In this document: piece by piece, positions 3,837 to 44,588 of the stretch
Numbering within the stretch: position 1 is the first letter of the stretch
Layout: every line of letters starts with the position of its first letter
Origin: Candidatus Poribacteria bacterium
GTDB lineage: Bacteria > Poribacteria > WGA-4E > WGA-3G
DNA: 50,729 bases
Assembly (NCBI GenBank): GCA_009845545.1
Contig: VXZK01000391.1
Coordinates: 1-50,729 of the forward strand
Direction of reading: 5' to 3'
The notes under the pieces: model-generated
What the model saw: the letters and a program-made list of their open reading frames with translations, nothing else
Told to the model about the DNA's origin: nothing
The model's database searches: none
Made by a program: the position numbers and the translations under genes

Positions 3837-3893
3837 GTGTTTTCCTAAGGCTGCTTGTTCCTTCTATGCTGATTTCTACAAACGGATGATTTA

Positions 3894-9359: not shown

Positions 9360-10493
9360 ATGGAAAAACGATACTTTGATTTCAGGGATATTTTCCAAGT
9401 CATCCGTTACGGATTCAGTGGACGAAAGATCGCAGTTCATTTCATTGGACTCGTCATCGCGTATCTGATTTATGAACTTTTGGTATATCTCAGTCTTTTC
9501 GTTGAAGGTGGCACCGCTGCCCAGGACTTTTGGAATACGTTCGCACTCCTACCTGTACTGCCCTTCAGTAACGCAGAACTTGCACAGCTAACTGAGATCG
9601 CAATGTGGATAGGGGTCGCGAGTTTCGCGTGTCTCTTCTTCTTGGCAAGCACCGTGGCTTCCAAAATTACCATCGAACAACTCCGCGGGGATTTCTTCTT
9701 TTCGGTCGGCGATGCCGTGACTTTTCTCAAAGGGCATTGGAAATCTGTTTTGGGCGCGTTCATCGGTTTACTTCTCATCCTGATATTTCTCGCCCTAATA
9801 CCCCTTAGCATTGCCGGACTCGGAAAGTTACCGGTCGTCGGGAAACCGTTTCTCACGGTCGCTTCACTGTTCATGCCGATCGGATTTTTTCTCGGTGTGC
9901 TAATGGTATTCATCGCGATCGTTTTCGGTGTCAGCCTACTCTTTGTGCCAGCCGTTGTCGCTACGACAGGTGCCGATGCGTTTGAAACCATCTATCAGCA
10001 GTTTGCCATCGTTTGGAACAAATCGTGGCTCACGGTGTGTTATGAGGCGATGTTGTTTCTCATAAAACTCGTCTTTGTACCAATCTGGGCTTTTTTTTGC
10101 CTCGCAGGGTTTTCAATCGTGATGTTCCCGGTGTCTCTTCTACACACCGGACAGATGGAGCACATCACAGCGTGTGCAAACCTATGGCTCGGTGGGGCTA
10201 TCGAAAAATTAGCGATGCTGCCCTACGTTAACAGTTTCGGTGTCTTTAACATCGGTATGGCCATGAAAGAGACATCGACTTTCACGACAACAGTGACAGC
10301 TATTTTTCTCACAATCACGCTGCTCATGGGGATCGGGTTGGTGATCGCATACCTGTTCTCAATCGCTTCTGCCGGAAATACAGTGGTTTATACGATTTTA
10401 CGCAAGAAAATTGATGGACACAATTTGTTAGAGCCCTTTAACGAGAACGTAGTAGAGACACCGGATGTGGCGCGTGAACCGGAGTCCAAGTAA
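9360..10493 (+). CDS. Polytopic inner-membrane protein, unknown function
   Basis: 377-aa ORF with at least 8 long hydrophobic segments. No catalytic motif recognised. Confidence 0.7.
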   Translation: MEKRYFDFRDIFQVIRYGFSGRKIAVHFIGLVIAYLIYELLVYLSLFVEGGTAAQDFWNTFALLPVLPFSNAELAQLTEIAMWIGVASFACLFFLASTVASKITIEQLRGDFFFSVGDAVTFLKGHWKSVLGAFIGLLLILIFLALIPLSIAGLGKLPVVGKPFLTVASLFMPIGFFLGVLMVFIAIVFGVSLLFVPAVVATTGADAFETIYQQFAIVWNKSWLTVCYEAMLFLIKLVFVPIWAFFCLAGFSIVMFPVSLLHTGQMEHITACANLWLGGAIEKLAMLPYVNSFGVFNIGMAMKETSTFTTTVTAIFLTITLLMGIGLVIAYLFSIASAGNTVVYTILRKKIDGHNLLEPFNENVVETPDVAREPESK

Positions 10494-10610: not shown

Positions 10611-13445
10611 ATGTTCCAAAAAGTGATAACAAAAGTCTTCGGTAGTAAAGAAGACCGGGATGTCAAAAAATTTCGTGACATCGTTGAAGCCGTCAACCAG
10701 CGCGAAGCGGATGTCAAAAAACTCACGGATGCCCAACTACAATCCAAAACAACCGAATTTCGCCAAAAATTGGACGCCGGCGCGTCGCTTGATGACCTCT
10801 TACCGGATGCGTTTGCTGTCGTCCGAGAAGCAGCCGTGCGGACATTGAAACAACGCCATTACGATGTCCAAATTATGGGTGGTGCCGCACTCCATCAGGG
10901 CAGCATCGCCGAGATGCGGACAGGTGAAGGGAAAACGCTCACCTCAACGCTTGCTGTCTACCTCAACGCACTCACCGGAAAAGGTGTCCATGTTGCCACT
11001 GTCAACGACTATCTGGCACGCCGCGACGCAGAATGGATGGGAAAAATCTATAACTTCCTCGGACTCTCCGTTGGGCTCACACTCAATCTCATACCGTATG
11101 AACAGAAAAAACTCGGATACAAGGCAGACATCACCTACGGTGTTCACAGTGAGTTTGGATTCAATTACCTGCACGATAACAGTGCCCTCTCGCTTGACGC
11201 GAAGGTGCAACGCGGGCATGCCTATGCGATCCTTGATGAAGTTGATAGTATTCTCATTGATGAGGCGCGGACACCGCTCATTATCTCAATCGCCGCCGGT
11301 AAACCCGCTGAACTCTATAGGCAAGTCAACAGCGTTGTCACACACCTCAAAGAAAGCGAACATTTTCAGATTGACCAGCAGGGGAAGTCGCGCGGCTCTG
11401 TAACGCTCACCGATGAAGGCGTTGAAGAAGTCGAACGCCGTCTCGGTGTCGGCAATCTCTACGAACATACCAATATCGCTATGGTGCATCACGTCAATCA
11501 GGCACTCACTGCAAACCACCTCTACAAACGCGATGTCGATTATCTCGTCGAAAACGGCGAAGTCCTCCTCGTCGATGAATTCACCGGACGAAAACAGATC
11601 GGGAGGCGGTTGAGCGAGGGATTACACCAAGCGATTGAGGCGAAAGAACGCGTTAAAGTCGTTCAGGAAAACGAAACCAGTGCCAAAATTACCTACCAGA
11701 ACTACTTCCGCATGTACGATAAACTCGCCGGTATGACAGGTACCGCCGCTACAGAGGCGAACGAATTCGCGCATATCTACGGCTTAGAGGTCGCCGTTAT
11801 CCCGACTAATGAACCCATGATCCGGATGGACAATCCTGACCAAATTTATGCGACCGAGGAAGCGAAATATGAGGCTGTCTTGAGCGATATCGTCGGGGAG
11901 CACGAAAAAGGGCGGCCAATACTCGTCGGGACGGCTTCGATTGAAAGCTCTGAGAAACTCAGTAAGATGCTCCGAACCAAACATCGAGACATCAAGCACC
12001 AGGTGCTGAACGCCAAAGAACACGCACATGAAGCCGATATCGTCGCACAAGCAGGTGTCCCCGGTGCCGTAACCATCGCTACGAATATGGCGGGGCGTGG
12101 TGTGGATATCCTCCTCGGCGGGAACCCGGAAGGCTTGGCAAAGGAGATGCTCCGCAAGCAGAAAACTAAAAGACAGGAACCCCATCCAGAGTCCGAAGAA
12201 TTCCAAGCAGCACTCGAAAAAGCGGAAGCAATTTGTAACGAAAACAAAGAGAAGGTGTTAGCCGCAGGTGGACTCCATATCGTCGGCACAGAACGCCACG
12301 AGTCGCGTCGTATTGATAATCAGCTCCGCGGACGTGCCGGTAGACAGGGCGATCCTGGCTCATCTCGCTTCTATCTCTCACTTGAAGACGAATTGATGCG
12401 GAAATTCGGATCCGAACGTTTGCAAGGGTTAATGACACGCGTCGGCATGGACGAAGAAGTACTATTAGAGCACCCGTGGATTACCAAGTCCATTGAAAAA
12501 GCGCAGACCCGTGTTGAGCAGATGCACTTTGAAATTCGTAAGAACCTTCTGAAGTTCGACGATGTCATGGATTCACAGCGCGACACCATCTATACCTTGC
12601 GCGACACCGTTTTGGCATCCGCGACCGACATGTTCGTATCATCTGAGGATGAGGATGTACCAGAAACAGAAGCACCGGCATCGACAGAAAACGGGAGTGT
12701 GCCAGAAGAGATCGGACTCGCAGCGCTCGCTGAAAAAGAAGGCAAAGCACCTGCTACCCTCAAAACGACAATCTGGCAGATGATTGAGAGAGTTGTTCAA
12801 GATGCAGTCGATGACAATCTGCCAGAAAAGGGCGGAAACACCCTTGAAAATCCCGATAGATATGAGCAGTGGTTGACAAGTAAATTTCCGGTCAAACCGA
12901 TTTGGAATCCGCCATTGGCACAGGCGAGTCTTGACGAGGTCGAGGAACATACCTTGGCAACATTGCGCGAGGTTTATGAGCAACGCGAAGCCGAATTCGG
13001 CCCCGAGATGATGCGTCTCCTCGAACGCCTACTCCTGCTTGATAGAATCGACGATCATTGGAAGGATCACCTCCAGAATATTGACTACATCGAGGAAGGC
13101 ATCCGTTTCGGCGCAGGATATGGCGGTAAAGACCCGATTGTCGTCTTCAAAAATGAAGCACTCGCGGTCTTTGAGAGTATGTATCAGCAAATTGAAGAAG
13201 AGGTCAGCGAATTCATCTTTAAATCTCAGGTTAACACACAAGCACCGCGCCGTGCCCCGGGCCGCCGCACAGGTAAACCGCGTAGACAACCGCCGAGGCG
13301 CGCCCAAGCACAGACCTCAACTTCAGCCAGCGATACAGCCGAATTCGCCTCTCAACAGGCGATGGGGAACATGCCGAAGGTCGGCAGAAATGCACCTTGT
13401 CCGTGCGGCAGTGGTAAGAAATATAAGAGATGCCACGGCGCATAG
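10611..13445 (+). CDS. secA: Preprotein translocase ATPase SecA
   Basis: 944-aa ORF with MRTGEGKTL (Walker A), [20 protein letters not shown] (DEAD-like) and LAGMTGTA. The C-terminal zinc motif is [14 protein letters not shown] (SEC-C). Confidence 0.97.
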
Positions 13446-24875: not shown

Positions 24876-24965
24876 TAACTCTTAATTCGGTCTTTGCATA
24901 GTCGTAGGCACACGCCGTGTGCCGGCACTACACGACACCAAATATCCAAAAAAGGTATAACCACG

Positions 24966-26273
24966 TTGAAGATTGCGTATTTTGACTGCTTTTCGGGGAT
25001 CAGTGGCGACATGACACTCGGTGCTTTGGTTGATGTAGGTGTACCACCCGAAATACTTACAGATCGATTGGCGACCCTCAAACTTGATGCTGAGTTCAGT
25101 CTTCGCTTTGAAAAATCCGTAAAACACGGTATCACCGGTACACGGGCGATTGTAGAGGTGCATCCAGCGCACACGCCTTCACACGAGGAAGCCGCCCATG
25201 AGCATACACATACGCACGCCCATGATCACGGGCATTCTCACCAGCATCATGAACACGGACCGAGTCGCCACCTCGCCGATATTTTCAAGCTGCTTGACGA
25301 TAGCGATGTGGATGCTGAGGTTCGGGATACCGCAAAACGCGTCTTTGACCGACTCGCGGAGGCGGAAGCAAAAGTTCACAATACAACGAAAGATAAAGTA
25401 CATCTCCACGAAGTCAGCGGAATCGATTCAATCGTAGACATCGTCGGTGCTGTCATCGGTCTTGCCCATCTGGATGTTGACGTTGTTTACGCATCTCCGC
25501 TCTCTCTGGGTCGCGGTTTCGTCCGGTGCGCACACGGATTTATGCCCGTTCCTGTCCCCGGCACGATGGAACTCCTACGGGGTGTGCCGATCCATCAAAC
25601 CGACATTCCGAAGGAATTAGTCACCCCGACGGGTGCTGCACTCATTACGACGCTATCGCAAGAATTCGGGGTCATGCCACAGATGCGATTGGACCGCGTC
25701 GGATACGGTGCCGGTACTCGCGACTTGGAACAACGTCCAAACCTTCTCCGCCTCTGTCTCGGCGAAAAAACGTCGGACATCAATTCAAAGACGACCCATC
25801 ATCACACTGAAACGGACAGTGTTGATATTATTGAAACCAATGTAGACGATATGTCGCCAGAGATTACCGGTTATGTTACCTCCCAACTCTTTGAACACGG
25901 CGCGCTTGATGTCTTTCTCATCCCCATCTTCATGAAAAAGGGTAGACCCGCGACACAAATCACTGTGCTAACCCCTACTGTGCATCGTGACAAACTCATC
26001 GAACTCCTCCTCACCGAAACCACGACTTTCGGCGTTAGGCTCTCTTCTGCTGATCGGATTAAACTGCGTCGTGATTTTGTCCAAGTCGAAACGCAGTGGG
26101 GCGCGATCCAAGCGAAACGTGGATATTTCAACGGCACGCTTATCAAGACCGTCCCTGAATATGAGGACTGCAAACGCCTCGCCGAACAAAATAACGTTCC
26201 ACTCCGACAAGTCTATACCGAAGCGCTCAGCAACCTCGGTTCTGTTAACCCAGTAGATCAGCCCGAAATCTAA
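24966..26273 (+). CDS. larC: LarC: nickel-pincer cofactor biosynthesis nickel insertase (DUF111)
   Basis: (L)KIAYFDCFSGISGDMTLGALVDVG is the canonical LarC N-terminus, so I place the start at TTG 24966. The ATG at 24894 lies in a repeat-like spacer. A His-rich tract HEEAAHEHTHTHAHDHGHSHQHHEHG is present. Confidence 0.88.
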   Translation: MKIAYFDCFSGISGDMTLGALVDVGVPPEILTDRLATLKLDAEFSLRFEKSVKHGITGTRAIVEVHPAHTPSHEEAAHEHTHTHAHDHGHSHQHHEHGPSRHLADIFKLLDDSDVDAEVRDTAKRVFDRLAEAEAKVHNTTKDKVHLHEVSGIDSIVDIVGAVIGLAHLDVDVVYASPLSLGRGFVRCAHGFMPVPVPGTMELLRGVPIHQTDIPKELVTPTGAALITTLSQEFGVMPQMRLDRVGYGAGTRDLEQRPNLLRLCLGEKTSDINSKTTHHHTETDSVDIIETNVDDMSPEITGYVTSQLFEHGALDVFLIPIFMKKGRPATQITVLTPTVHRDKLIELLLTETTTFGVRLSSADRIKLRRDFVQVETQWGAIQAKRGYFNGTLIKTVPEYEDCKRLAEQNNVPLRQVYTEALSNLGSVNPVDQPEI

Positions 26274-26405: not shown

Positions 26406-27188
26406 ATGAACACTTTAAACAACAAAATCGCGCTTAATTTTGACAGTGACGCAGAAGTGTCTGTCACAGGCTTCATTGCGCCGATTGCGCATACACTCTC
26501 TAACTTCCACGTTGAGTGGGAGACATTGGCGAATCTACGCGTTTCTGAGCCGGAGAAGCAGCATCACGTATCTATTTTTCAAGCATTTCTTCCAGATGAA
26601 CCAGTTTCAGTAGGTGAGTGCTGGCGGATTGAAGAGACCGGTGTAATGGAGCTGCTTCGACAACTAAATCCTAATCCAAATCTGGATATGCATATGACTT
26701 CCGGAGATTCTCTCGGTTTGTGGGCATGCCTACGCGCGTACAATGATCAATTCGCCGACATCGCGTTTCGGGTTCATGCGGAATTTAAATTAGAAGATGG
26801 CTGGCTTACGCCTTCGCAGTTTGCCGGAAACCTTATAATTGACCGACTTGAGGGAAAAATCGCTTTCTTTGAAATGTCCGTCCCCGCAGGTACGGTGAAC
26901 CTCGATATCGGTTGGAAAGAAGACAAAGAGGCATCTTATTCTATTACGGATGCAGGTTTTTGCTCGCAAATGCAACTCCGTGCTGGGGCGCGAGAGGTTG
27001 CGCAGAACATAGAACTTTCAACATCTATCACCCAAGAAGAAGCAGAACGCGTGTTAGCAGGACGTTTCTACAAGTCAGAACAAATTAACTGGGTATCCCC
27101 ATATCAAGCAGTGGAGAGAGCAGCGGCAGAGGTGAAGCTTATTCATGTGATTTCGATAGACGGTCCGTTGGCTGATGAATCCTGCTGA
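26406..27188 (+). CDS. N-terminal part of a thioredoxin-like protein, ending at an in-frame TGA directly after Cys
   Basis: The ORF ends ...INWVSPYQAVERAAAEVKLIHVISIDGPLADESC-TGA. The start is probably ATG 26406, because GTG 26361 abuts a long hairpin. See the finding on possible selenocysteine read-through. Confidence 0.6.
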   Translation: MNTLNNKIALNFDSDAEVSVTGFIAPIAHTLSNFHVEWETLANLRVSEPEKQHHVSIFQAFLPDEPVSVGECWRIEETGVMELLRQLNPNPNLDMHMTSGDSLGLWACLRAYNDQFADIAFRVHAEFKLEDGWLTPSQFAGNLIIDRLEGKIAFFEMSVPAGTVNLDIGWKEDKEASYSITDAGFCSQMQLRAGAREVAQNIELSTSITQEEAERVLAGRFYKSEQINWVSPYQAVERAAAEVKLIHVISIDGPLADESC

Positions 27189-27203
27189 GGGAGCGGCAAA
27201 GGC

Positions 27204-27986
27204 TTGAGGGCAGGTGTCCTCTCTGATGACCGAGTTATCGAATTCTTGAATGAAAATTTCATTAACGTTTGGGTTTCCAATGTCGAATTAGAACGCACGC
27301 CCAGAAAACAAGCCTACATGGCACGAAGACGTGAAGAACTATCCAAAACATTTGACAGAACACACCCGTTAGCAAAAGCTATCATGGAAGGGTGGAAAGA
27401 ACATTCACCTGTGGATTGTTTAGTTATTGCCCCAGAATACGATGTGATGGGGAAACTCCCTCTTAATGACTTCTTTGATGACTGTTTTCAAAAGGATATT
27501 CCAGAAGAGGATGCCTACCTTAAGTTTCTTGAGGATTCTTTAGGTGGTAAGTTGCCCGGATTTAAGGATGAACATTCAGATTCTCCTTCGAATGGTTTGA
27601 ACGTTGTGCTTAACCCTGAACAGACTGAACAAGAAGTACTGGACATCCTTCGGACACCGAGGTACGGTTATCAAGATTATACTGTCGTTGAGATTGATGC
27701 GACTGCCTTTGAAGACGGTGGCACACTCGCCATTGATATTCGGATGGGTACTGCAAAGCCGGGTGGGTCATTCGATCTGTATGATAGCGATACTGAACTG
27801 CCAACAAAAGGTTATCCTGATGACGCGCTTACCTCAGCATGGGATATCCCGTCCGGACAGATAGGAAGAATCCGACATCATTTTGATGAAGGCAAGGTTT
27901 TTAAGTTGGGTGCTACCGGTACGTGGTTCAATGAGAAAGGGAGCATCAACGCCTTTCTCGCAAAAATCTCTGTAGAGGAAAATTAA
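27204..27986 (+). CDS. C-terminal part of the same thioredoxin-like protein (same frame; nominal TTG start)
   Basis: It is in frame with 26406-27188 and separated only by TGA plus five sense codons (GSGKG). It begins ...LRAGVLSDDRVIEFLNENFINVWVSN, which continues the thioredoxin-fold pattern. Confidence 0.6.
   Translation: MRAGVLSDDRVIEFLNENFINVWVSNVELERTPRKQAYMARRREELSKTFDRTHPLAKAIMEGWKEHSPVDCLVIAPEYDVMGKLPLNDFFDDCFQKDIPEEDAYLKFLEDSLGGKLPGFKDEHSDSPSNGLNVVLNPEQTEQEVLDILRTPRYGYQDYTVVEIDATAFEDGGTLAIDIRMGTAKPGGSFDLYDSDTELPTKGYPDDALTSAWDIPSGQIGRIRHHFDEGKVFKLGATGTWFNEKGSINAFLAKISVEEN
27206..27221 (+). promoter_or_regulatory. Short stem-loop 18 nt downstream of the in-frame TGA (weak SECIS candidate)
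   Basis: gaggg-caggtg-tcctc forms 5 bp including one G-U pair, with GGU in the apical loop. Confidence 0.3.
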
Positions 27987-36177: not shown

Positions 36178-37431
36178 TTAAAACGGGAACAGATTGCCTG
36201 CAGCATCAAACGCAAACGGCTTCGTTTCACCGATAACCTCTAATCTTGAATGCAGCTTCGCATCTTCAAGCAGCACCTCAGAGATGTCGAGGTTCGTCAA
36301 TCTCAACGTGCTCTCAATACGGATGACCCGTGCATCTTCCGGTTCCGTGAGACCGATAGTGTCCAATGCCACTTCGATCGCTTCACGGTCGGTATCGTAG
36401 TAGAACGGGATTTTCGACTTCTGCGGTCCCAGCGCGGTGATACCGTTCATGTAAGTCGAGTGCCGGTCAATCTTATCTACAAGGCGGGTCGTTGTGAAAT
36501 CGGCAAGTCCGATACCCGTGGCGTTGCCATCGCTCTCTTCCGTGAGATCCCGGACGAATATACGGAGGATCGCGGGTTTCGCAGGCTCTGGTTCAAAGTT
36601 CTGCATCATCCGACCGATGACGTTCGTATCCATACCCGTGCCGCTGATATTTTTCCCTGTCCAATCCACGATCAACAGGTCGAGTTCATCGAACGGGAGT
36701 CGTCCCATCAGCGATTTCGCCTCAACGAGCAGTTCACGTTCGTTTTGAAGAAGTTGCGCGGCAGGCATCGCTACTGCTTTCGCGGTATCTTCGTGTGCGT
36801 TCTCAATTAATCCCAAACCGAAGGTGATTTTTCCGGTGTCGAGAATAAACCCACCGACTGCCATGATGACGTGTTCAAAACTGTACTGGAAGAAGGCGCG
36901 ATGATAGAGGTTTGCACCCTGCTGTTTGCCGAGTCCGATCACCATCATCTTCATCAAGCCGCTCTCGATGGAGCCATTGAAATCTGTGTGTGCCTTGATA
37001 CGATTGACCGGAACGACGTGGTCCGCTTCAGCGGCATATCGATCAAAGAAAACCGGTAAGCCATCCGCCGTTTTGCCGAGTTCCACGACCTCCATTGTCG
37101 CTTTCACCGGTGCACCGACAGTTTCTTCGGTGATACCGTAATGCGCCAATACGCTCCGCTGTCCTTCAGCGGTTGCACCGCCGTGGCTTCCCATCGCTGG
37201 AACCACAAACGGTTTTGCGCCGAGTCCTTTGAGGTAATCAACCGTTGCCTTGACGGCGATATCAACATTTGCGACACCGCGGCTGCCAGCGGTAATCGCG
37301 ACAGTCTCGCCCGGTTTGACAAGAGTAGCGGCGTTAATCCGATCTAATTCTGTGTGGATTGCTGCAGGAAGGTCCGTAAGAACAGGTGCTTCAAACTGCT
37401 GTTGAATCCGTGTCATTTTTGGAAGTGCCAT
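36178..37431 (-). CDS. LarA-like/DUF2088-type protein (putative nickel-pincer-dependent racemase/epimerase family)
   Basis: ITAGSRG, PAMGSHGGAT and NRIKAHTDFNGSIESGLMKM parallel the LarA blocks SDHTRP, ATGFHR and EGFIESHFFAGFSGG. The start is set at MALPK because the longer ORF would overlap the divergent promoter. Assignment is tentative. Confidence 0.45.
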   Translation of the reverse strand: MALPKMTRIQQQFEAPVLTDLPAAIHTELDRINAATLVKPGETVAITAGSRGVANVDIAVKATVDYLKGLGAKPFVVPAMGSHGGATAEGQRSVLAHYGITEETVGAPVKATMEVVELGKTADGLPVFFDRYAAEADHVVPVNRIKAHTDFNGSIESGLMKMMVIGLGKQQGANLYHRAFFQYSFEHVIMAVGGFILDTGKITFGLGLIENAHEDTAKAVAMPAAQLLQNERELLVEAKSLMGRLPFDELDLLIVDWTGKNISGTGMDTNVIGRMMQNFEPEPAKPAILRIFVRDLTEESDGNATGIGLADFTTTRLVDKIDRHSTYMNGITALGPQKSKIPFYYDTDREAIEVALDTIGLTEPEDARVIRIESTLRLTNLDISEVLLEDAKLHSRLEVIGETKPFAFDAAGNLFPF

Positions 37432-37544
37432 GCGTTTCCATCCTTTATATTTTACCTGTGGGTGGAATTTAAAGGCAATTTTATCAGAAACGGAATAAGA
37501 ATTCAAGGTAAATATCGAATGCGGACAGAGCCATTCGGTATTGC

Positions 37545-37573
37545 TTGATAGCAATACAGATGTGTGCTAAAAT
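37545..37573 (+). promoter_or_regulatory. Sigma-70 promoter TTGATA-N17-TAAAAT for the first WD40 gene
   Basis: ttgata at 37545-37550 and taaaat at 37568-37573, about 70 nt upstream of the ATG at 37646. Confidence 0.6.
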
Positions 37574-37645: not shown

Positions 37646-39529
37646 ATGAAAACAGTGAGATGTTTTAACATGACCCTTATGCTCTTGTTAATCGTTGGCT
37701 TCTGTCAATCCAACGGTTTTGCACAAGAATATGTCCGGTGGCAGCTGCCACAAGGTGCCATCGCGCGTTTGGGAAAAGGAAAAATAAATGAGGTTAAATA
37801 TTCACCCGATGGCAACACAATCGCAGTGGCGAGCAGCATCGGAATCTGGCTTTACAACGCGCACACCGGTGCGGAATTAGCACTGATGACGGGACACACA
37901 CGCAACGTCTACTGTGTCGCCTTCAGTCCAGACGGACAAACGTTAGCAAGCGGGAGTAGCGACAGCACGATTCGATTGTGGGATATACAGATACAAAGGC
38001 GGAAGGCGACCCTCGCTGGACACAGAAGCCGGGTGAGAGCCGTTGCCTTCAGTCCGGATGGTGACACGCTGGCAAGTACAGGGGCAGATGATACAGTGCG
38101 TTTATGGAGTCTTCGCCTCAAAAGGCTTAAGAAGATGCTCATTGGACATACAGATGGTGGACGGACAGTCGCGTTCAGTCCAGATGGCAAGGTGCTTGCG
38201 AGTGGGAGTGAGGATAGCACAATTCGGTTATGGGATGCCCACACCGGACACCCTTTGAAAACCGTGACAGGTCACAAACGAGCCGTAACTTCTATCGCGT
38301 TCAGTCCGGATGGACAAACGTTCGTCAGTGGTTGTGACGATAGCACAATTGGGGTATGGGACACACGTACTGGAGAACAACTACAGCACCTCCTCGGACA
38401 CACGTGGTATATTGCATCGGTGGTCTTTTTACCAGATGGAGAGACGGTCGTCAGTGTGAGTTGGGATAACGCTGTTCATCTGTGGAATCCGTACACCGGC
38501 AAACTCCTGCGAAGACTTAAGGCGCACACAGGCCCCGTCGTCTCAGCGACGTATGCTCCGAACGGAGAGACGCTCGTCAGTGGAAGTCACGATGGGACAA
38601 TTCGTTTCTGGAATACACAGACGTGGGAAGCGAAAAATACCATCGCTGGACATACGGGCGAGGTCAAGGCGGTCGCGTTTTCACCCGATGGACAGACAAT
38701 TGCAAGTGGGAATACAAGACACACGATTGATTTGTGGGATGCCAAAACCGGTGAACACAAAAACACACTCACCGGACACGGTTGGACAGTTGCTGCTGTC
38801 GCCTTTAGTCCCGATGGCAGCACACTTGCGAGCGGCAGCTGGGATAATAATATCCACTTGTGGGATCCAGAGACAGGGGAACACAAACAGACACTGAGTG
38901 GCCATTGGGATTACGTTGTAGCATTGGCGTTTTCGCCGGATGGGAACAGACTCGCGAGTGGGAGTAATGATGATACCGCTCGGTTGTGGGGCGCGAAAAC
39001 CGGCACCCCCTTGCATATCCTCAAAGGACATACAGGAGATGTCAGAGCCATCGCGTTTTCACCCGATGGCAGGACACTCGCAAGTGGCGATGGAAATGCT
39101 AACGAGATCCGTTTATGGGATGGACGTGCCGGAAGACACAAACTGACGCTTGAGGGGCATAGTAACGATATTACAGGGCTCGCCTTTAGTCCTGATGGTA
39201 GCACGCTTGCGAGTGCTTGTGACGATCGAACAGTAGGGGTATGGAACGCATATACCGGGCGGAACATACAGATGCTCAGAGGGCACACGACGTACGTTTT
39301 AACAGTAGCGTATGCACCTGATGGCGACACGCTCGCCAGCGCAAGTTGGGACATGATGGTTCGCTTGTGGGATACCAAAACTCGGAGACCTAAGTCAGGC
39401 TTGATTGGACACACAGGGTACGTTTTATCGATTGCGTACGCGCCTGACGGACGGACACTTGCCAGTGGTAGTGCTGATGGCACAGTGCTTTTGTGGGATA
39501 TGACACGGTTCCAGCCAAAAACTGATTAA
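37646..39529 (+). CDS. Secreted WD40-repeat protein (two seven-bladed propellers' worth of repeats)
   Basis: 627 aa with the signal peptide MTLMLLLIVGFCQSNGFAQE. About 14 units follow, of the form GHTxxVxxVAFSPDGxTLASGSxDxTIRLWD. Confidence 0.92.
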   Translation: MKTVRCFNMTLMLLLIVGFCQSNGFAQEYVRWQLPQGAIARLGKGKINEVKYSPDGNTIAVASSIGIWLYNAHTGAELALMTGHTRNVYCVAFSPDGQTLASGSSDSTIRLWDIQIQRRKATLAGHRSRVRAVAFSPDGDTLASTGADDTVRLWSLRLKRLKKMLIGHTDGGRTVAFSPDGKVLASGSEDSTIRLWDAHTGHPLKTVTGHKRAVTSIAFSPDGQTFVSGCDDSTIGVWDTRTGEQLQHLLGHTWYIASVVFLPDGETVVSVSWDNAVHLWNPYTGKLLRRLKAHTGPVVSATYAPNGETLVSGSHDGTIRFWNTQTWEAKNTIAGHTGEVKAVAFSPDGQTIASGNTRHTIDLWDAKTGEHKNTLTGHGWTVAAVAFSPDGSTLASGSWDNNIHLWDPETGEHKQTLSGHWDYVVALAFSPDGNRLASGSNDDTARLWGAKTGTPLHILKGHTGDVRAIAFSPDGRTLASGDGNANEIRLWDGRAGRHKLTLEGHSNDITGLAFSPDGSTLASACDDRTVGVWNAYTGRNIQMLRGHTTYVLTVAYAPDGDTLASASWDMMVRLWDTKTRRPKSGLIGHTGYVLSIAYAPDGRTLASGSADGTVLLWDMTRFQPKTD

Positions 39530-39631
39530 AGTTAGCGGTCAGCCTTCAGCATGCTTCGCAGTGAGAATGATCAGTAAGTGTCGCTCCTACAAGAGAAGTC
39601 CGCGATTAGAATCAAAATTACAGGAGAACTA

Positions 39632-41517
39632 ATGAAAAACCTGAATTTGCTTTCTATGCTGATAATCCTTATTCTTCTACTGTCGTTTTCAAGCAGCGTT
39701 GCCCAAGAATACACGCGATGGCATCTCCCTGAAGGGGCTATCGTCCGTTTTGGAAAAGGGAGAATCTATGGGGGTGTGACATATTTTCCGGATGGGACGC
39801 GACTTGCTGTCAAAAGTTCAATTGGCACTTGGATCTATGACGTAGACACCGGAAAAGAGGTTGAACTACTGACGGGTGATATGTGGGATACTGGTGCTAT
39901 GGCATTTAGTCCTGACGGAAAAACATTTGCTGTCGCAAGCGGCAATAACATCCATTTGTTGGACCCAGACACGAAAAACCAGAGAGATGTCCTCACGGGA
40001 CACACGTCTTCTGTCTATACGTTAGCATTCGGTCCGACCGGGGAAACACTCGCCAGTGGCAGTCGAGATACCACAGTTAGACTCTGGGATGTCCATACCG
40101 GTGAATTGCTGCAAACCCTCATAGGACATACAGATAGAGTCATATCCGTGGTATATTCACCTGATGGAAAGACACTTGCGAGTGTCGCGGGTTTTGAAGA
40201 TAACACGGTATGTTTATGGAATGTGCAAACAGGGCAACTCCTGCAAACGATTACCGAACATCCGGATAGAGTCTACCGTGTTGCTTACTCCCCTGATAGC
40301 CTGACACTTGCCAGTGGCGGACGCGATGCCAAGATCTGTGGAATGTCCATACCGGTGAACTCACAAAAACCATTACGACCGATATGAGGTCCGTTACTTC
40401 CGTTGTTTATTCATCTGATGGTGGCACACTTGCCAGCGGGAGTTGGTCGAATAACAATATCTATTTGTGGGATGTTCACACAGGCGAACTTCTGAAAACA
40501 TTGACGGGACATACCGACTCGGTTGATTCTCTCGGGTACGCGCCTAATGGTAAGACGCTTACCAGTGAAAGTGAAGACGGGACAATCCGATTTTGGGATG
40601 CTGACACCGGTGAACTGCTGAAAACTATCAGTGGACACACGTTTTTCGCAAGGGCGGTGACATTTTCACCGGATGGCCGCACACTTGTGAGTAGTGAGAT
40701 GGCAGACAATACAATTACCCTGCGAGATGTTCAAACTGGGGAAATTTTAAAAACACTTGCCGGGCATACAGAACACCTCAATTCTGTAGCATATTCGCCG
40801 GATGGAAAGATCTTGGCAAGTGGAAGTTGGGATGGACAAATTCGGCTGTGGAACGGGCAGACCGGAGAACTTCTGAAACTCCTCACTGGACATGAGAGAG
40901 GCGTTCCTGCGCTCTCATTTTCAATGGATGGGACAACCCTGGCGAGCGGAAGTTGGGATAACTCAGTCTATTTGTGGTATGTGCCAACTGGACACATCTT
41001 ACAAACCATCACCGGAAACATCACGGCATCAGAACGAAACAATGGAGTCAGATCTATTTCGCTTAACGCTGATGGGCGGACCCTTGCTGTGGCAACTGAC
41101 GAGAAAATAATTCGACTCTGGGATATTCACACAGGCAAAGTTAAAATGGAACTCATAGGACCTGAGCGGACGGTTGTTGCTGTTGCATATTCACCAAATG
41201 GATCAGTGCTCGCGAGTGGTGGCGATGACCGCAAAATTCGGTTATGGGATGCTGCTTCTGGCGAATTAGTGTCCATTTTTCCAAACCAGTCGGACGTGAT
41301 CGTGTCTATAGCATTCAGTCCAGATGGACAGACAATTGCAAGTGGAACTGTGAAGGATATCTATATCTCAGATGTAGCGACAGCCAAGCACATAGCAATC
41401 CTTACTGGACATAAGCGTCCGATTCGGTCCGTAGCGTTTAGTCCTGATGGGAAGATGCTCGCCAGTGGCAGTGATGATTGCACGGTAATATTATGGGATT
41501 TGACGCAGCTCCGATAA
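39632..41517 (+). pseudogene. Paralogous secreted WD40-repeat gene interrupted by a 1-nt frameshift near 40335
   Basis: ORFs 39578-40387 and 40384-41517 together reproduce the paralog's architecture. At 40331-40345 (aagatctgtggaatg) the expected ...DAKI(x)LWNVHTGEL... continues only in the -1 frame. The signal peptide MKNLNLLSMLIILILLLSFSSSVAQE starts at 39632 behind aggaga. Confidence 0.75.
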
Positions 41518-41719: not shown

Positions 41720-43126
41720 CTAAAAGGGTGTTCCGCGCGTTGTTAGCGCACACCAGCGCGAAGTAAATAGATGATTGAAAAGCGCGTCCTGTGCCTCTGG
41801 CGTTTGAATCTGCTTTAACGCCAATGCAGCATGGAAACGGACATATCGGTCTTCATCCTCAAGTTGCGCTACAAGCGCGGGCATCGCCGGTTCAGCAAGC
41901 GTTCCGAATTTCGCTAAGGCACGGGCAGCGTTATCGCGAACAGGAAGATAGGCATCGCTCAACCCGGTTGCCAAGACCTGCACAGTCTCAGACACATCCA
42001 TCTCGTCAGACACCAGTTGTCCAATGAGTCCCAACCCCTCTGTAGCGTGTCGCCGGACCGATTCGGAGGGGTCTTGTGCAGCACGTATCAACGCAGGCAG
42101 TGCCTCTTGCGCGGCTTTTCCCATATCCGCTAAGGCGAACGCTGCGCTTGCCCGCACTGAATCGTCGGTCTCTTGCAGGGCATCAATAAGCGTCGGAACA
42201 GCGGGTGCACCAGTGAGGCTTAAAGCATATCCTGCATACTCGCGAATGACATTAGATTCACTGTGTAACATCTGCTGCAAAGCAGGCACGGCATCGGCAC
42301 CGACCCGTCCCAACCGATACGCGGAATTTAGCCTCTCTTTTTCATTATCGCTATCGAAGGTTTCAATGAGGGTATCCACTTCAACGTCCGAAACACCGTT
42401 GGCAGTTCCGTTCTGTTTCCCGTAGTACCAATCCCATACCGACTCCCATAATTCCGGATGCTCAGATGCTTCGTCGTTGCCGAGAGCGTTCCAGTCGGGG
42501 GTATCATTCTGCCATAAAGGTGCTTGTGGCTCATCGAGTCGGATAAAGAGAAACTTCAACATATACCGTTTTTTGTCGCTCCGATTCGGCATCGCCCGAT
42601 GCCATAAGTCGTAGTGGACAATTGTCACAGTGCCTGCTTCGCCACAGAGTGCCATTTCTGGCTGTTCATGGGCACTTTCACCCGTCTCATAATACTGTGA
42701 GCCGGGTAGGACAGCAGTAGCTCCCATATCTTCCGTGACATCTTGCGGATAATAAAATGCCATCGTCCACCGGCACCGGTGCCGACGAATCTGTTCGTCA
42801 CCTGCGTAGCTATCTTTATGGAAATTCTGCCCTTCGCTCCCCTGTTGATTAAAATGGCAGTAACGGTGTGGATGCATGACGTAGTCTGCGCCGAGTACGC
42901 CTTGCATCGCACCGTGAACAACCGGATGATCAAAAACTTCTTGAATTTCTGGGATGGCTGGCAGCAAATTGTTCCCCAAATTCCCGGTTTCCTCAAACAT
43001 TGTATCCAATTGCTGGCAAATATTCTCATGAAAACTCGGCGGGAAATCGGTCTTTACCTTGACATAGCCGTTAATGATGAAATCCCGCATCTCTTCATCG
43101 GTGAGTTGCAGTGTCGGTCTATTCAT
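41720..43126 (-). CDS. Phytanoyl-CoA dioxygenase (PhyH)-like Fe(II)/2OG oxygenase fused to C-terminal HEAT repeats, paralog 1
   Basis: N-terminal PhyH-type block with HKDSY..D and VHYDLWHRA (HxD...H triad candidates). The C-terminal ~220 aa are PBS-lyase-type HEAT repeats (VR..A..AL..). The start is set at ATG 43126, 9 nt after GAGGAGG. Confidence 0.75.
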   Translation of the reverse strand: MNRPTLQLTDEEMRDFIINGYVKVKTDFPPSFHENICQQLDTMFEETGNLGNNLLPAIPEIQEVFDHPVVHGAMQGVLGADYVMHPHRYCHFNQQGSEGQNFHKDSYAGDEQIRRHRCRWTMAFYYPQDVTEDMGATAVLPGSQYYETGESAHEQPEMALCGEAGTVTIVHYDLWHRAMPNRSDKKRYMLKFLFIRLDEPQAPLWQNDTPDWNALGNDEASEHPELWESVWDWYYGKQNGTANGVSDVEVDTLIETFDSDNEKERLNSAYRLGRVGADAVPALQQMLHSESNVIREYAGYALSLTGAPAVPTLIDALQETDDSVRASAAFALADMGKAAQEALPALIRAAQDPSESVRRHATEGLGLIGQLVSDEMDVSETVQVLATGLSDAYLPVRDNAARALAKFGTLAEPAMPALVAQLEDEDRYVRFHAALALKQIQTPEAQDALFNHLFTSRWCALTTRGTPF

Positions 43127-43193
43127 CTCGCGCACCTCCTCTATTCCTTATGACAGAGAACCAAATTTGATTAGGGCATTTAAGGGCTGTACG

Positions 43194-44588
43194 CTAATAG
43201 GGCGTGCCCCGCGTTGTCAGTGCACACCACCGCGAAGCAAACAGGTGGTTGAAAAGCGCGTCCTGTGCTTCGGGGGTCTTAATCTGCTTTAACGCCAACG
43301 CTGCATGGAAACGGACATATCGGTTCTCATCTTCCAACTGCGCGACAAGCGTAGGAATTGCCTGTTCAGCGCGTGTGCCTAATTTCGCTAAGGCGCGGGC
43401 TGCATTATCGCGAATCCAGTAATAGTCGTCCTGCAATCCATTTGTTAGGACATCTACAGTCTCGGACAAATCCATCTCGTCGGAAACCTGTTGCCCGATT
43501 AATCCCAACGCTTCTGTAGCGTGTCGTCGAACCCATTCAGAAGGGTCTTGCGCGGCATGCGTTAAGGCAGGTATCGCCTCTTGCGCGGTTTTTCCCATAT
43601 CCGCCAAGGTATACGCAGCGGTTGCCCGCACCGAATCATCTGTTGTTTGCAATGCATCAATGAGTGTTGGAACAGCAGGTGCCCCGGTGAGACTCAACGC
43701 ATACCCGGCGTAGTTGCGGATGGCATCAGATTTACCCTGCAACGCCTGCTTTAAAGAAGGCACGGCAGCAGGACCAACCCGCCCTAAGCGATACGCGGCA
43801 TTTAGTCTTTCTCTTTCATTATCGCTGTCTAAAGTTTCGATGAGGGTCTCCACTTCATTGTGAGAAACGCCGTTGGCAATGCCGTTCTGTTTGCCATAGT
43901 ACCAATTCCACAACGATCCCCATAATTCTGGATGTTCAGATTCTTCGATGTTGTGCCAGTTAGCCGTATCACTATTCCACGTGGGTGTTTGTGGTTCACC
44001 GAGTCGGGAAAAGAGGAATTTCACCATGTAGCGTTTCTTGTCGCTCCGATTCGGGGTTGCGCGGTGCCATAGGTCGTAGTGGACGATTGTAACCGTGCCT
44101 GCCTCACCACAGAGCGAAAGGTCCGGCTGTTCATGTGCGCTTTCACCCGTCTCGTAATACTGTGAACCGGGCAGGACAGCGGTGGGTCCCATATCTTCCG
44201 TGACGTCCTGCGGATAATAGAACGCCATCGTCCAACGGCACCGATGCCGGCGGATCTGCTCATCGCCTTCATAGGTATCTTTATGGAAACCCTGTCCATC
44301 ACTCCCTTCAGGGTTGTAGTGGCAGTAGCGGTGTGGATGTAGGACGTAGTCTGGACCGAGTACGCCTTGCATTGCGCCGTGGACCACAGGATGGTCAAAA
44401 ACCTCTTGCATCTCAGGGATAAGTGGCAGGACGTTATTGCCTAAATTGCCCGTTTCAAACATTGCCTCAAGTTGTTCGTAAACATTTTCATGAAAGCTCG
44501 GCGGGAAATCCGGCTTCACCTTGATGTACCCGTTGATGATGAAATCCCGCATCTGTTCATCGGTGAGCTGCAGTACTGATCTGCTCAT
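43194..44588 (-). CDS. PhyH-like oxygenase-HEAT repeat fusion, paralog 2
   Basis: 464 aa, collinear with and mostly identical by eye to paralog 1, including the C-terminal tail SRWCALTTRGTPY. The Shine-Dalgarno sequence ggaggt precedes the ATG. Confidence 0.75.
   Translation of the reverse strand: MSRSVLQLTDEQMRDFIINGYIKVKPDFPPSFHENVYEQLEAMFETGNLGNNVLPLIPEMQEVFDHPVVHGAMQGVLGPDYVLHPHRYCHYNPEGSDGQGFHKDTYEGDEQIRRHRCRWTMAFYYPQDVTEDMGPTAVLPGSQYYETGESAHEQPDLSLCGEAGTVTIVHYDLWHRATPNRSDKKRYMVKFLFSRLGEPQTPTWNSDTANWHNIEESEHPELWGSLWNWYYGKQNGIANGVSHNEVETLIETLDSDNERERLNAAYRLGRVGPAAVPSLKQALQGKSDAIRNYAGYALSLTGAPAVPTLIDALQTTDDSVRATAAYTLADMGKTAQEAIPALTHAAQDPSEWVRRHATEALGLIGQQVSDEMDLSETVDVLTNGLQDDYYWIRDNAARALAKLGTRAEQAIPTLVAQLEDENRYVRFHAALALKQIKTPEAQDALFNHLFASRWCALTTRGTPY

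What the first reader, a model, noticed from the sequence alone, without database searches (positions are those of the whole stretch)
26406..27986. In-frame TGA inside the redox-motif position of a thioredoxin-like domain: candidate selenoprotein (C-U-G-S)
Seen in sequence:
- ORF 26406-27188 stops at TGA 27186-27188.
- ORF 27204-27986 is in the same frame. Only five sense codons (GSGKG) intervene, and its nominal start is TTG.
- Read-through gives ...INWVSPYQAVERAAAEVKLIHVISIDGPLADESC-[TGA]-GSGKGLRAGVLSDDRVIEFLNENFINVWVSN...
- A short stem-loop GAGGG-CAGGUG-UCCUC (27206-27221) starts 18 nt after the TGA, with GGU in its loop.
- Other genes here use TGA as a genuine stop (for example at 7001-7003 and 9221-9223), so this is not a genome-wide recoding.

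Established knowledge:
- Thioredoxin_7/DUF255-type domains run W - helix - beta strand - CxxC - helix - D..V..fL...FV.V.V. The halves only make a complete domain when joined, and the TGA falls exactly at the redox motif, directly after Cys.
- Sec next to or near Cys is the rule in thiol-oxidoreductase selenoproteins (GCUG in thioredoxin reductase; thioredoxin-like and UGSC-motif families reported from marine metagenomes).
- The stem-loop distance is roughly what is expected for a bacterial SECIS, but the stem is weak.

Alternatives:
- A nonsense pseudogene.
- A sequencing error.
- Two coupled genes, since GGGAG lies upstream of the TTG.
Basis: partly seen in the sequence, partly recalled or inferred. 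Interest (0 to 1): 0.75.

Follow-up and report, generated by a model that had tools for sequence, protein, structure and literature searches.

The report
Bacterial selenoprotein N homologue gene
The two "halves" are one gene in a sponge-symbiont bacterium (Poribacteria) whose internal TGA almost certainly encodes selenocysteine, and the protein is a previously unreported bacterial relative of selenoprotein N, the human muscle-disease protein.

Summary
ORFs 26406-27188 and 27204-27986 form one 526-codon gene with an in-frame TGA at 27186-27188.

- **TGA conserved:** 218 of 219 family copies in 77 Poribacteria loci plus the window carry TGA at this column. All 206 reconstructable copies keep long open frames on both sides.
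- **RNA element:** synonymous variation collapses only from codon -1 to +12. A 6-bp hairpin (27206-27221, loop A-G-G/U-U) is paired in 96.7% of cells and shows compensatory changes.
- **Cys forms exist:** distant relatives are single polypeptides with Cys at the column (…DESC-C-GSGK…).
- **Sec machinery:** a published COG table lists SelA, SelB and SelD for Poribacteria WGA-3G, a genome that carries the family.
- **Fold:** a high-confidence model shows a DsbH/Thioredoxin_7-type thioredoxin fold.

The new result is identity. The protein is homologous to animal selenoprotein N (SELENON; E=8e-28), with the same S-C-U-G-S-G-[K/R] motif. It matches no Pfam or NCBIfam model, and I found no report of prokaryotic SELENON homologues. 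In Poribacteria the family forms tandem arrays. Unresolved: Sec versus SECIS-directed Cys, biochemical function, and the direction of transfer between animals and bacteria.

The parts
26406..27986 (+). Complete selenoprotein N-like gene (526 codons including UGA; ATG start, TAA stop at 27984-27986)
   Evidence: Full-length homologues P0001-P0014 cover 99% of it. BLASTP to wombat SELENON-like P0250 gives E=8e-28.
26622..26987 (+). N-terminal beta-sandwich domain (about aa 73-194), shared with animal SELENON
   Evidence: Boundaries transferred from the models of P0001 and P0132 through alignment A1. This region aligns to animal SELENON. Boundaries are approximate.
26994..27542 (+). DsbH/Thioredoxin_7-type thioredoxin-fold domain (about aa 197-379) spanning the TGA
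   Evidence: Model of P0132 has pLDDT 89.5. Foldseek top hits are 2ju5 DsbH, 7tkv, 2lst, 3ira, AGR2/3 and ERp19. Boundaries are approximate.
27183..27185 (+). Cys260 codon (TGC), the partner of Sec in the S-C-U-G motif
   Evidence: Cys is present in all 217 distinct TGA-type copies, as TGC in 215. It is lost in 2 of 8 non-TGA paralogues.
27186..27188 (+). In-frame UGA, proposed selenocysteine codon (residue 261)
   Evidence: TGA in 218 of 219 aligned copies. Cys at this column in P0132, P0134, P0141, P0147, P0148 and P0186. UGA at the same column in Nematostella and Tupaia SELENON.
27206..27221 (+). SECIS-like hairpin: stem 27206-27211 / 27216-27221, tetraloop AGGU at 27212-27215
   Evidence: 96.7% of cells paired versus 47-80% in slid registers. 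Three of 6 pairs have compensatory changes and 0 of 500 shuffles reach the observed values. Loop G27 is present in 204 of 206 copies.
27183..27224 (+). Zone of suppressed synonymous variation (codons -1 to +12) marking the RNA element
   Evidence: Codon entropy is 0.06-0.43 bits at codons +7 to +11 against a background of 1.7-2.2 bits. Flanking codons are at background.
27600..27974 (+). C-terminal beta-sandwich (CBM-like) domain (about aa 399-523), absent from animal and Cys-type relatives
   Evidence: P0001 model and Foldseek hits to PliG, the ColH collagen-binding domain and CBM6/22/35. P0132 and the animal proteins end after the thioredoxin-fold domain.

Best explanation
Positions 26406-27986 are one gene for a 526-residue selenoprotein, a bacterial homologue of selenoprotein N.

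**Recoding (inferred mechanism).** During translation, the UGA at 27186 is not read as stop. The mRNA hairpin at 27206-27221 (6 bp, apical loop A-G-G-U, loop starting 26 nt after the U of UGA) acts as a bacterial SECIS. It recruits SelB·GTP·Sec-tRNA(Sec) to the ribosome, and selenocysteine is inserted directly after Cys260.

**Protein.** It has an N-terminal beta-sandwich, a DsbH-type thioredoxin-fold domain carrying the vicinal Cys-Sec pair in the motif S-C-U-G-S-G-K, and a C-terminal beta-sandwich.

**Chemistry (inferred).** By analogy with the GCUG centre of thioredoxin reductase and the SCUG centre of SELENON, the pair most likely cycles between a selenolate/thiol and a selenenylsulfide, reducing oxidised thiols or peroxide-derived species on a partner protein that the flanking beta domains hold.

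**Shown here:** the conserved UGA, the conserved and covarying hairpin, single-polypeptide Cys homologues, the thioredoxin fold, and homology to SELENON.

**Inferred:** SelB dependence, Sec rather than Cys, the redox chemistry, and the substrates.
For: - **Conserved UGA.** TGA is at the column in 218 of 219 copies from 77 Poribacteria loci plus the window. All 206 reconstructable copies keep open frames (median 552 aa, with 275 aa after U), and 72 of them end at a genuine TGA.
- **Family-wide split.** Among the best 150 of 751 cluster representatives, 68 gene calls stop exactly at the Cys and C-terminal calls start at profile position 315.
- **RNA-level selection.** Synonymous entropy collapses only at codons -1 to +12.
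- **Hairpin.** It is paired in 96.7% of cells, with compensatory G-C/A-U/U-A changes at 2-3 pairs. A subclade has a register-shifted 7-bp stem closing a GGUC loop. G at loop position 1 or 2 matches the bacterial SECIS consensus quoted in PMC13582414.
- **TGA-dependent constraint.** The constraint is not seen in six Gly-type paralogues.
- **Cys forms.** Relatives with Cys at the column are single polypeptides.
- **Functional coupling.** The partner Cys is invariant in TGA copies but lost in 2 of 8 non-TGA paralogues.
- **No downstream start.** 43% of copies have no start codon within 12 codons after the TGA.
- **Sec machinery.** SelA=2, SelB=1 and SelD=1 are listed for Ca. Poribacteria WGA-3G (PMC5649159 Table S4), the genome holding loci L007 and L064. 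A Sec-type hydrogenase has been reported in Poribacteria.
- **Fold.** The hits are DsbH-type thioredoxin folds.
- **Homology to SELENON.** E=8e-28 with the motif in register. The animal UGA is at the same column.
Against: - No tRNA-Sec, selA, selB or selD was found in the window or in 1.6 Mb of fetched Poribacteria DNA. None is expected by chance, but the machinery is therefore shown only through a published COG table for one related genome.
- The hairpin is short. The single-sequence MFE fold prefers another pairing, and no Rfam family matches.
- Five of six Gly-type paralogues still have all six pairs, so the structure alone does not prove SECIS function.
- The nearest full-length homologues carry Gly or Trp rather than Cys at the column.
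- Sequence cannot separate Sec from SECIS-directed Cys insertion by a tRNA-ReC.
- There is no protein-level or selenium-labelling evidence.
Confidence: 0.82

Rival explanations
1. The same SECIS/SelB-directed recoding occurs, but Cys rather than Sec is inserted by a non-canonical tRNA (tRNA-ReC/SelC*). The product would be a C-C protein like the metagenomic Cys-type relatives.
For: Such tRNAs exist and act with SelB and a SECIS (PMC13582414). Cys-Cys forms of the family are viable.
Against: SelA and SelD, which are needed only to make Sec, are listed for Poribacteria WGA-3G. Keeping a costly UGA plus hairpin in more than 200 paralogues when TGC would do the job is hard to explain. No tRNA-ReC was seen, although coverage is tiny.
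Confidence: 0.07
2. These are two separate, translationally coupled genes. Translation terminates at the TGA and re-initiates at the TTG (27204), using GGGAG as a Shine-Dalgarno sequence, and the two polypeptides assemble non-covalently.
For: GGGAG lies upstream of the TTG. Gene callers annotate two ORFs everywhere.
Against: Codon +6 is CTG in 92 of 214 copies, and 43% of copies have no ATG, GTG or TTG within 12 codons. The residues between (G-S-G-K) are conserved as protein all the way to animals. The thioredoxin fold is cut in its active-site loop. Cys-, Gly- and Trp-type relatives and animal SELENON are single chains.
Confidence: 0.04
3. SelB-independent stop-codon read-through: the hairpin merely stimulates near-cognate decoding of UGA (Trp, Cys, Arg or Gly).
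For: Paralogues tolerate Gly or Trp at the column. Animal SELENON has a read-through-promoting hairpin at the same place (the SRE literature is from memory).
Against: The invariant adjacent Cys, and its loss once the UGA is replaced, indicate a redox pair. The loop G and its distance from the UGA fit the SECIS consensus. Sec machinery is present in the phylum. The animal homologue has Sec at this site.
Confidence: 0.05
4. A nonsense pseudogene or a sequencing/assembly error at 27186-27188.
For: None beyond the bare presence of a stop codon.
Against: The same TGA occurs in 218 of 219 independent copies from dozens of assemblies, with both flanks intact and conserved.
Confidence: 0.005

Closest known systems
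Selenoprotein N (SELENON/SEPN1) of animals (and a few algae)
   Same: Homologous over the beta domain plus the thioredoxin-fold domain (28% identity over 313 aa, E=8e-28). The profile search retrieves Nematostella and wombat proteins. The motif is identical, S-C-U-G-S-G-[K/R], with UGA at the same column. The pathogenic human Arg466 corresponds to the +4 Lys. Both have an RNA hairpin directly after the UGA with overlapping apices.
   Different: No EF-hand, and the window copy has no N-terminal membrane anchor. It has an extra C-terminal beta-sandwich. Recoding uses an in-ORF bacterial-type hairpin of 6-7 bp, whereas animals use a 3'-UTR SECIS plus a roughly 39-nt SRE. There is no intron. The gene is single-copy in animals but forms tandem arrays of up to 8 in Poribacteria.
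Thioredoxin reductase C-terminal GCUG redox centre
   Same: A vicinal Cys-Sec dyad followed by Gly. This is the model for a selenenylsulfide redox cycle (established knowledge; also noted for SelN in PMC12839072).
   Different: An unrelated fold and position. TrxR carries the dyad on a flexible C-terminal tail of a flavoenzyme. Here it sits in the active-site loop of a thioredoxin fold.
DsbH / Thioredoxin_7 / Thioredox_DsbH (DUF255) thioredoxin-fold proteins, and ER proteins AGR2/AGR3/ERp19
   Same: These are the best structural matches (2ju5, 7tkv, 2lst, 3ira, 3ph9, 1sen; E 1e-4 to 1e-2, TMt 0.5-0.7).
   Different: No Pfam HMM match. The redox motif is C-U (vicinal), not CxxC. The domain is flanked by beta-sandwich domains.
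Described bacterial selenoprotein families with a Trx-like fold or CU motifs (UGSC-containing protein NF041046, KCU-star/DUF466, SaoB CUxxT, Trx-like Sec.1/Sec.2)
   Same: All are bacterial selenoproteins. UGSC shares the tripeptide U-G-S, and KCU-star and SaoB share a C-U dyad (table in PMC13188914).
   Different: No NCBIfam model matches the fused protein, its central domain or P0001, even at E<=10. The motif is U-G-S-G, not U-G-S-C.
E. coli fdhF-type bacterial SECIS
   Same: A hairpin just 3' of the UGA inside the ORF, with G in the first or second apical-loop position. The ANGK subclade even has a GGUC loop like fdhF (fdhF details are from memory).
   Different: The conserved stem is shorter. 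The loop begins at +26 rather than about +22. There is no evidence for a bulged U. It has not been tested with SelB.

Membership tests
Selenoprotein N (SELENON) | Significant sequence homology across the conserved core (beta domain plus thioredoxin-like domain) | tested here: met
   BLASTP window vs P0250: E=8e-28 over 313 aa. P0250's relatives are named Selenoprotein N, including the human protein. The profile of bacterial sequences retrieves P0213 (Nematostella) and P0250 at E about 1e-31 and 1e-27.
Selenoprotein N (SELENON) | S-C-U-G redox motif with Sec encoded by UGA at that column | tested here: met
   The window reads S-C-TGA-G-S-G-K. SCUGSGK occurs in 98 of 206 copies. Nematostella and Tupaia exons read …DDQSC-TGA-G.
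Selenoprotein N (SELENON) | EF-hand calcium-binding domain N-terminal to the core | tested here: not met
   No EF-hand or any other Pfam hit. The alignment to the animal protein starts at window residue 76 versus animal residue 252.
Selenoprotein N (SELENON) | N-terminal transmembrane anchor with lumenal/extracytoplasmic catalytic domain | tested here: not met
   The window copy has no N-terminal hydrophobic segment. 67 of 206 paralogues do, by a crude hydropathy test.
Selenoprotein N (SELENON) | Eukaryotic 3'-UTR SECIS element | tested here: not met
   No Rfam SECIS family anywhere in the window. An in-ORF hairpin is present instead.
Selenoprotein N (SELENON) | Conserved stem-loop immediately 3' of the UGA (SRE) | tested here: inconclusive
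   Both have a hairpin, with apices at about +26 to +30. The animal one is about 39 nt and the bacterial one 16 nt. Homology versus convergence is not resolved.
Bacterial selenoprotein (general criteria) | In-frame UGA conserved across homologues, with conserved coding sequence on both sides | tested here: met
   218 of 219 copies. 206 intact two-sided frames.
Bacterial selenoprotein (general criteria) | Bacterial SECIS: a stem-loop shortly 3' of the UGA with G at apical-loop position 1 or 2 | tested here: met
   Stem at +20..+35, loop A-G-[G/U]-U with G27 in 204 of 206 copies. Covariation and controls are, and synonymous constraint. No bSECISearch or SelB-binding test was available.
Bacterial selenoprotein (general criteria) | Cys-containing homologues at the Sec column | tested here: met
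   P0132, P0134, P0141, P0147, P0148 and P0186 carry C-C.
Bacterial selenoprotein (general criteria) | selA, selB, selD and tRNA-Sec in the same genome | tested here: inconclusive
   Not found in the window or in the loci. SelA, SelB and SelD are listed for Poribacteria WGA-3G, which carries the family. The window's own genome could not be examined.
Bacterial selenoprotein (general criteria) | Selenium in the protein | not testable with these tools
   Needs 75Se labelling or mass spectrometry.
Thioredoxin_7 / Thioredox_DsbH (DUF255) Pfam families | Match to the family HMM above threshold | tested here: not met
   The only Pfam hit is CCG at E=0.18.
Thioredoxin_7 / Thioredox_DsbH (DUF255) Pfam families | Thioredoxin fold of the DsbH type | tested here: met
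   Foldseek hits 2ju5, 7tkv, 2lst and 3ira, using a model with pLDDT 89.5.
Thioredoxin_7 / Thioredox_DsbH (DUF255) Pfam families | CxxC active-site motif | tested here: not met
   The motif is a vicinal C-U (or C-C in the Cys forms), followed by G-S-G-K.
UGSC-containing selenoprotein (NF041046) | HMM match and U-G-S-C motif | tested here: not met
   No NCBIfam hit at E<=10. The motif here is U-G-S-G.

The most novel reading that the evidence does not exclude
The hairpin that drives Sec insertion in the bacterial genes and the 'Sec redefinition element' (SRE) that follows the UGA in animal SELENON mRNA are the same ancestral RNA element. On this reading SELENON moved between bacteria and early animals (sponge symbiont and host are the obvious pair). 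The in-ORF bacterial SECIS survived in animals as the SRE after a 3'-UTR SECIS took over, or, in the other direction, the SRE was co-opted as a bacterial SECIS. The apices overlap: +26..+29 in bacteria, +26..+30 in Tupaia and +24..+32 in Nematostella, all on the homologous codons of SG[K/R]xLRxxVL. Animals form one clade among deeper bacterial branches in a rough tree.
Probability: 0.25. Interest if true: 0.92.

Novelty: new variant of a known kind. Interest (0 to 1): 0.82.

Why it matters
- **A tractable model for a disease protein.** SELENON mutations cause SEPN1-related myopathies. I know of no experimental structure, and a PDB sequence search with the central domain found no relative. Its chemistry is understood mainly by analogy. 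Soluble bacterial homologues with the same SCUG centre, natural Cys-Cys and Gly variants, and a confident predicted fold offer material for structural and enzymological work.
- **A likely gap in the catalogues.** The family appears to be missing from bacterial selenoprotein lists: no NCBIfam or Pfam model matches, and it is absent from the 2026 review table. It is annotated everywhere as two hypothetical proteins, so selenoproteomes of sponge symbionts are undercounted by many genes per genome.
- **An evolutionary question.** A family otherwise reported only from eukaryotes (animals and a few algae) is greatly expanded in an obligate sponge-symbiont phylum, and both lineages have a recoding hairpin in the same place. 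This bears directly on host-symbiont gene transfer and on how Sec-recoding signals are exchanged between domains of life.

Tried and rejected
- **Long alternative hairpin (+2..+38).** This is the MFE fold of the window sequence. Across 206 copies its variable pairs only break and never compensate, so I rejected it.
- **Rfam.** Nothing at gathering thresholds in the whole window, and only noise (E about 7) in an e-value scan of 27100-27320.
- **Family and sequence libraries.** Pfam and NCBIfam give no family for the fused protein, and a PDB sequence search finds no relative.
- **tRNA-Sec.** ARAGORN found none in the window or the 77 loci, which is uninformative given the small fraction of each genome sampled.
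- **Other selenoprotein genes.** A scan of 1.6 Mb of loci for other TGA-interrupted genes produced only antisense-like frames.
- **A wrong recollection.** I remembered Chernorudskiy et al. (PNAS 2020) as using a Poribacteria SEPN1 orthologue. The paper mentions no bacteria.
- **Missing or uninformative sources.** Supplementary data for PMC13582414 are not held. The taxonomy of the Cys-type relatives could not be found, because all come from unnamed metagenome contigs.
- **Genome-wide UGA reassignment (code 4 or 25).** Rejected, because TGA terminates other window genes and 72 of the family's own copies.
Full report
**1. Observation.** An ORF from ATG 26406 ends at TGA 27186-27188. The same frame continues through five sense codons (G-S-G-K-G) to a nominal TTG start at 27204 and on to TAA at 27984-27986. 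TGA is a genuine terminator for five other plausible genes in the window (stop usage TAA 18, TAG 12, TGA 6). 27186 is the only TGA junction in the window between two long same-frame segments of a credible gene. The window has no paralogue, no tRNA and no Rfam match.

**2. The TGA is conserved, so it is not damage.** A homology search with the fused protein found two kinds of hit: full-length single-polypeptide relatives (P0001-P0014, about 50% identity) and many half-length hits. The half-length gene calls end exactly at …DE[AST]C or start just after the junction. One call (P0016) runs from a C-terminal half into the next paralogue's N-terminal half and stops again at …DDESC.
- A scan of one genome per GTDB species found 274 relatives. 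The best 80 are all from Candidatus Poribacteria or unnamed MAGs.
- In the 77 fetched loci plus the window, 219 copies span the junction. The aligned codon is TGA in 218 and TCA in one.
- Copies lie in tandem arrays of up to eight per 21-kb locus.
- All 206 copies that can be fully reconstructed have long open frames on both sides (median 552 aa, 275 aa after the TGA). 72 of them end at a genuine TGA.
- An exhaustive profile search of 1.84 billion cluster representatives found 751 relatives (E<=1e-3). Among the best 150, 68 N-terminal gene calls stop exactly at the Cys (profile position 308), and C-terminal calls begin at position 315.

Pseudogene and sequencing error are excluded.

**3. An RNA element follows the TGA.** Among 217 distinct copies, synonymous-codon entropy falls to 0.06-0.43 bits at codons +7 to +11, against a background of 1.7-2.2 bits. 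It is reduced from codon -1 (Cys as TGC in 215 of 217) to +12. Codons -9 to -2 and +13 onward sit at background.
- Individual pairs are formed in 87-100% of 206 distinct copies. Compensatory changes occur at 23/32 (G-C 157, A-U 14, G-U 9) and at 24/31 (G-U 147, G-C 32, A-U 14, U-A 4).
- On a 148-sequence alignment, 96.7% of cells pair, against 47-80% when partners are slid. Three of six pairs have double changes, and no shuffle out of 500 reaches the observed values. RNAalifold finds the same helix.
- A divergent subclade (…C-U-A-N-G-K…) has a register-shifted 7-bp helix closing a GGUC loop.
- The loop G (204 of 206 copies) at apical position 2 fits the bacterial SECIS consensus quoted in PMC13582414.
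- A longer alternative hairpin, favoured by single-sequence folding, shows only pair-breaking variation and was rejected.

**4. Relatives without the TGA.** The closest full-length relatives carry Gly (GGA, GGC or GGT) or Trp (TGG) at the column.
- They form distinct clades. The Gly clade always follows an ECF sigma-factor gene and precedes ABC-2 permease genes.
- Five of six Gly-type genes still have all six hairpin pairs. However, their synonymous variation in that region (5 of 9 columns) is no lower than gene-wide (170 of 257), so the element looks inherited rather than selected there. The sample is small.
- The partner Cys, present in all 217 distinct TGA copies, has been lost in 2 of 8 non-TGA genes, and its codon has relaxed to TGT. 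That fits a functional Cys-Sec pair.
- More distant relatives from metagenomes are single polypeptides with Cys at the column, …DE[SA]C-C-[GA][ST]GK… (P0132, P0134, P0141, P0148, P0186; P0147 reads C-C-K-G-S-G-K). This meets the classical Sec/Cys-pair criterion.

**5. Sec machinery.** None is present in the window or in the fetched flanks, which is what chance would give. Table S4 of Slaby et al. 2017 (PMC5649159) lists COG1921 SelA=2, COG3276 SelB=1 and COG0709 SelD=1 for Ca. Poribacteria WGA-3G. That single-cell genome provides loci L007 and L064, both with the TGA. A Sec-type group 4 hydrogenase has also been reported from Poribacteria. The same paper warns that a tRNA-ReC can insert Cys at SECIS-UGA sites. 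Sequence data cannot exclude this.

**6. Against two coupled genes.** Codon +6, the window's TTG, is CTG in 92 of 214 copies. 43% of copies have no ATG, GTG or TTG within 12 codons of the TGA. The intervening G-S-G-K is conserved as protein out to animals. The junction lies in the active-site loop of a single domain.

**7. Fold.** No Pfam, NCBIfam or PDB sequence match exists.
- A first model (Gly-type P0001, pLDDT 64) suggested beta-sandwich, thioredoxin-like and beta-sandwich domains, with Foldseek hits to Thioredox_DsbH/DUF255 domains and to CBM-like modules.
- A second model, of the Cys-type P0132 with a diverse alignment, is confident (pLDDT 89.5, pTM 0.84). Its top PDB matches are all thioredoxin folds of the DsbH/Thioredoxin_7 type: 2ju5, 7tkv, 2lst, 3ira, AGR2/AGR3 and ERp19.
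- The C-C/C-U dyad lies in the loop after strand beta-1, just before a short helix (312-315 in the P0132 model). In classical thioredoxins the CxxC sits in the corresponding region. The exact superposition is inferred, because I could not inspect coordinates.

**8. Identity.** Two junction-crossing hits from the profile search are animal proteins (wombat, Nematostella) annotated only as EF-hand proteins.
- The wombat protein's relatives are named Selenoprotein N across vertebrates, including human.
- The window protein aligns to it over 313 residues (28% identity, E=8e-28), with S-C-[U-G]-S-G-K/R in register. The animal gene models skip the U-G.
- In Nematostella and Tupaia genomic DNA the exon reads …DDQSC-TGA-G, followed by a phase-1 intron.
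- The SelN literature gives the SCUG motif and the pathogenic Arg466 four residues after Sec, which corresponds to the Lys here.

The window gene is therefore a bacterial homologue of SELENON. It lacks the EF-hand and, in this copy, any membrane anchor, and it has an extra C-terminal beta-sandwich.

**9. Is it known?** Within the searchable literature I found no report of prokaryotic SELENON homologues.
- The 2026 SelN review limits orthologues to vertebrates and some invertebrates.
- Other surveys add sponges, cnidarians and a few algae.
- The 2026 review of prokaryotic selenoproteomes lists no such family.
- No paper combines Poribacteria with selenoproteins except the hydrogenase study.
- NCBI names the Poribacteria halves "hypothetical protein".

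My recollection of a bacterial orthologue in the 2020 PNAS paper was wrong. Subscription-only literature was not searchable.

**10. Mechanism and limits.** The best-supported reading is SelB/SECIS-directed insertion of Sec at 27186, giving a 526-residue thiol-selenol oxidoreductase with a vicinal Cys-Sec centre on a DsbH-like scaffold. The redox chemistry (a selenenylsulfide cycle as at the TrxR GCUG centre) and the substrates are inferred. About a third of paralogues have N-terminal hydrophobic segments, so part of the family is probably exported. The window copy appears cytoplasmic. Window neighbours give no functional clue: a sigma-70 factor, LarC, a MacB/FtsX permease, RecQ, a GT2 glycosyltransferase and a sulfatase.

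**11. Evolutionary lead.** Spliced animal SELENON mRNAs fold into a strong hairpin after the UGA: Tupaia +9..+47 at -27.9 kcal/mol and Nematostella +8..+47 at -29.1 kcal/mol. Its apex overlaps that of the bacterial hairpin. This is presumably the SRE known from the SEPN1 literature (from memory). A rough NJ tree puts animals in one clade (100/100) among deeper bacterial branches, but the rooting is unreliable. Common ancestry of the bacterial SECIS and the animal SRE, and gene transfer between sponge symbionts and early animals, are open and testable possibilities.

Noticed in passing
L086 (Nematostella) 5560-5619 and 9008-9097; L088 (Tupaia) 10311-10382 and 11425-11514: Animal SELENON genes have a phase-1 intron immediately after 'TGA G', in both a cnidarian and a mammal. 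The spliced mRNA forms a strong hairpin of about 39 nt after the UGA. Its apex (+26..+30 in Tupaia, +24..+32 in Nematostella) overlaps the apex of the bacterial hairpin (+26..+29).
   Followed up: partly
L078 1636-6425; L080 1610-7256; L081-L084: The Gly-type paralogues (GGN instead of TGA, with a signal-peptide-like N-terminus) always sit directly after an ECF sigma-factor gene and before ABC-2 permease genes. One metagenomic Cys-type relative (P0134) is fused to an ECF sigma domain. This suggests a sensor or anti-sigma role for some family members.
   Followed up: partly
L034:11200: This is the only copy of 219 without TGA. It reads TGC TCA GAG AGC (C-S-E-S), a Sec-to-Ser change with an altered next codon, while the downstream hairpin sequence is unchanged.
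   Followed up: no
P0016 (541 aa): A gene call runs from the C-terminal half of one paralogue straight into the N-terminal half of the next and stops at …DDESC. Some tandem copies may therefore be fused into one reading frame with two UGA codons, giving a two-module selenoprotein.
   Followed up: no
P0015, P0022, P0028, P0051 (380-407 aa C-terminal halves): Many paralogues carry two copies of the C-terminal beta-sandwich domain, so the domain architecture varies within the family.
   Followed up: no
L087 (wombat) 25659-25926; P0307: The marsupial 'selenoprotein N-like' paralogue has Phe at the Sec column (…DDQSC-F-G) and a diverged GPGQGLRD segment. Many UniRef animal SELENON models simply skip the U-G dipeptide.
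   Followed up: no
window 27183-27185 and homologous positions: The Cys codon before the UGA is TGC in 215 of 217 copies, and the codon after it is GGG in 160 of 182. This conserved C-UGA-G context relaxes to TGT in Gly-type paralogues.
   Followed up: partly
window 37646-41517 (+) and 41720-44588 (-): There are three consecutive WD40-repeat genes, the second and third overlapping by ATGA at 40384-40387, so they may be one split gene. Two HEAT-repeat/PhyH genes follow. These are eukaryote-like repeat proteins typical of sponge symbionts.
   Followed up: no
window 24894-26273 (+) and 36178-37554 (-): A LarC-type nickel-insertion gene lies directly upstream of the selenoprotein gene, and a gene with a lactate-racemase N-terminal domain lies 10 kb away. 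No link to the finding is apparent.
   Followed up: no
window 1173-5672 (-), 7101-7646 (+), 9360-10493 (+): Four sizeable ORFs (887, 592, 181 and 377 aa) have no Pfam match at E<=1e-5.
   Followed up: no
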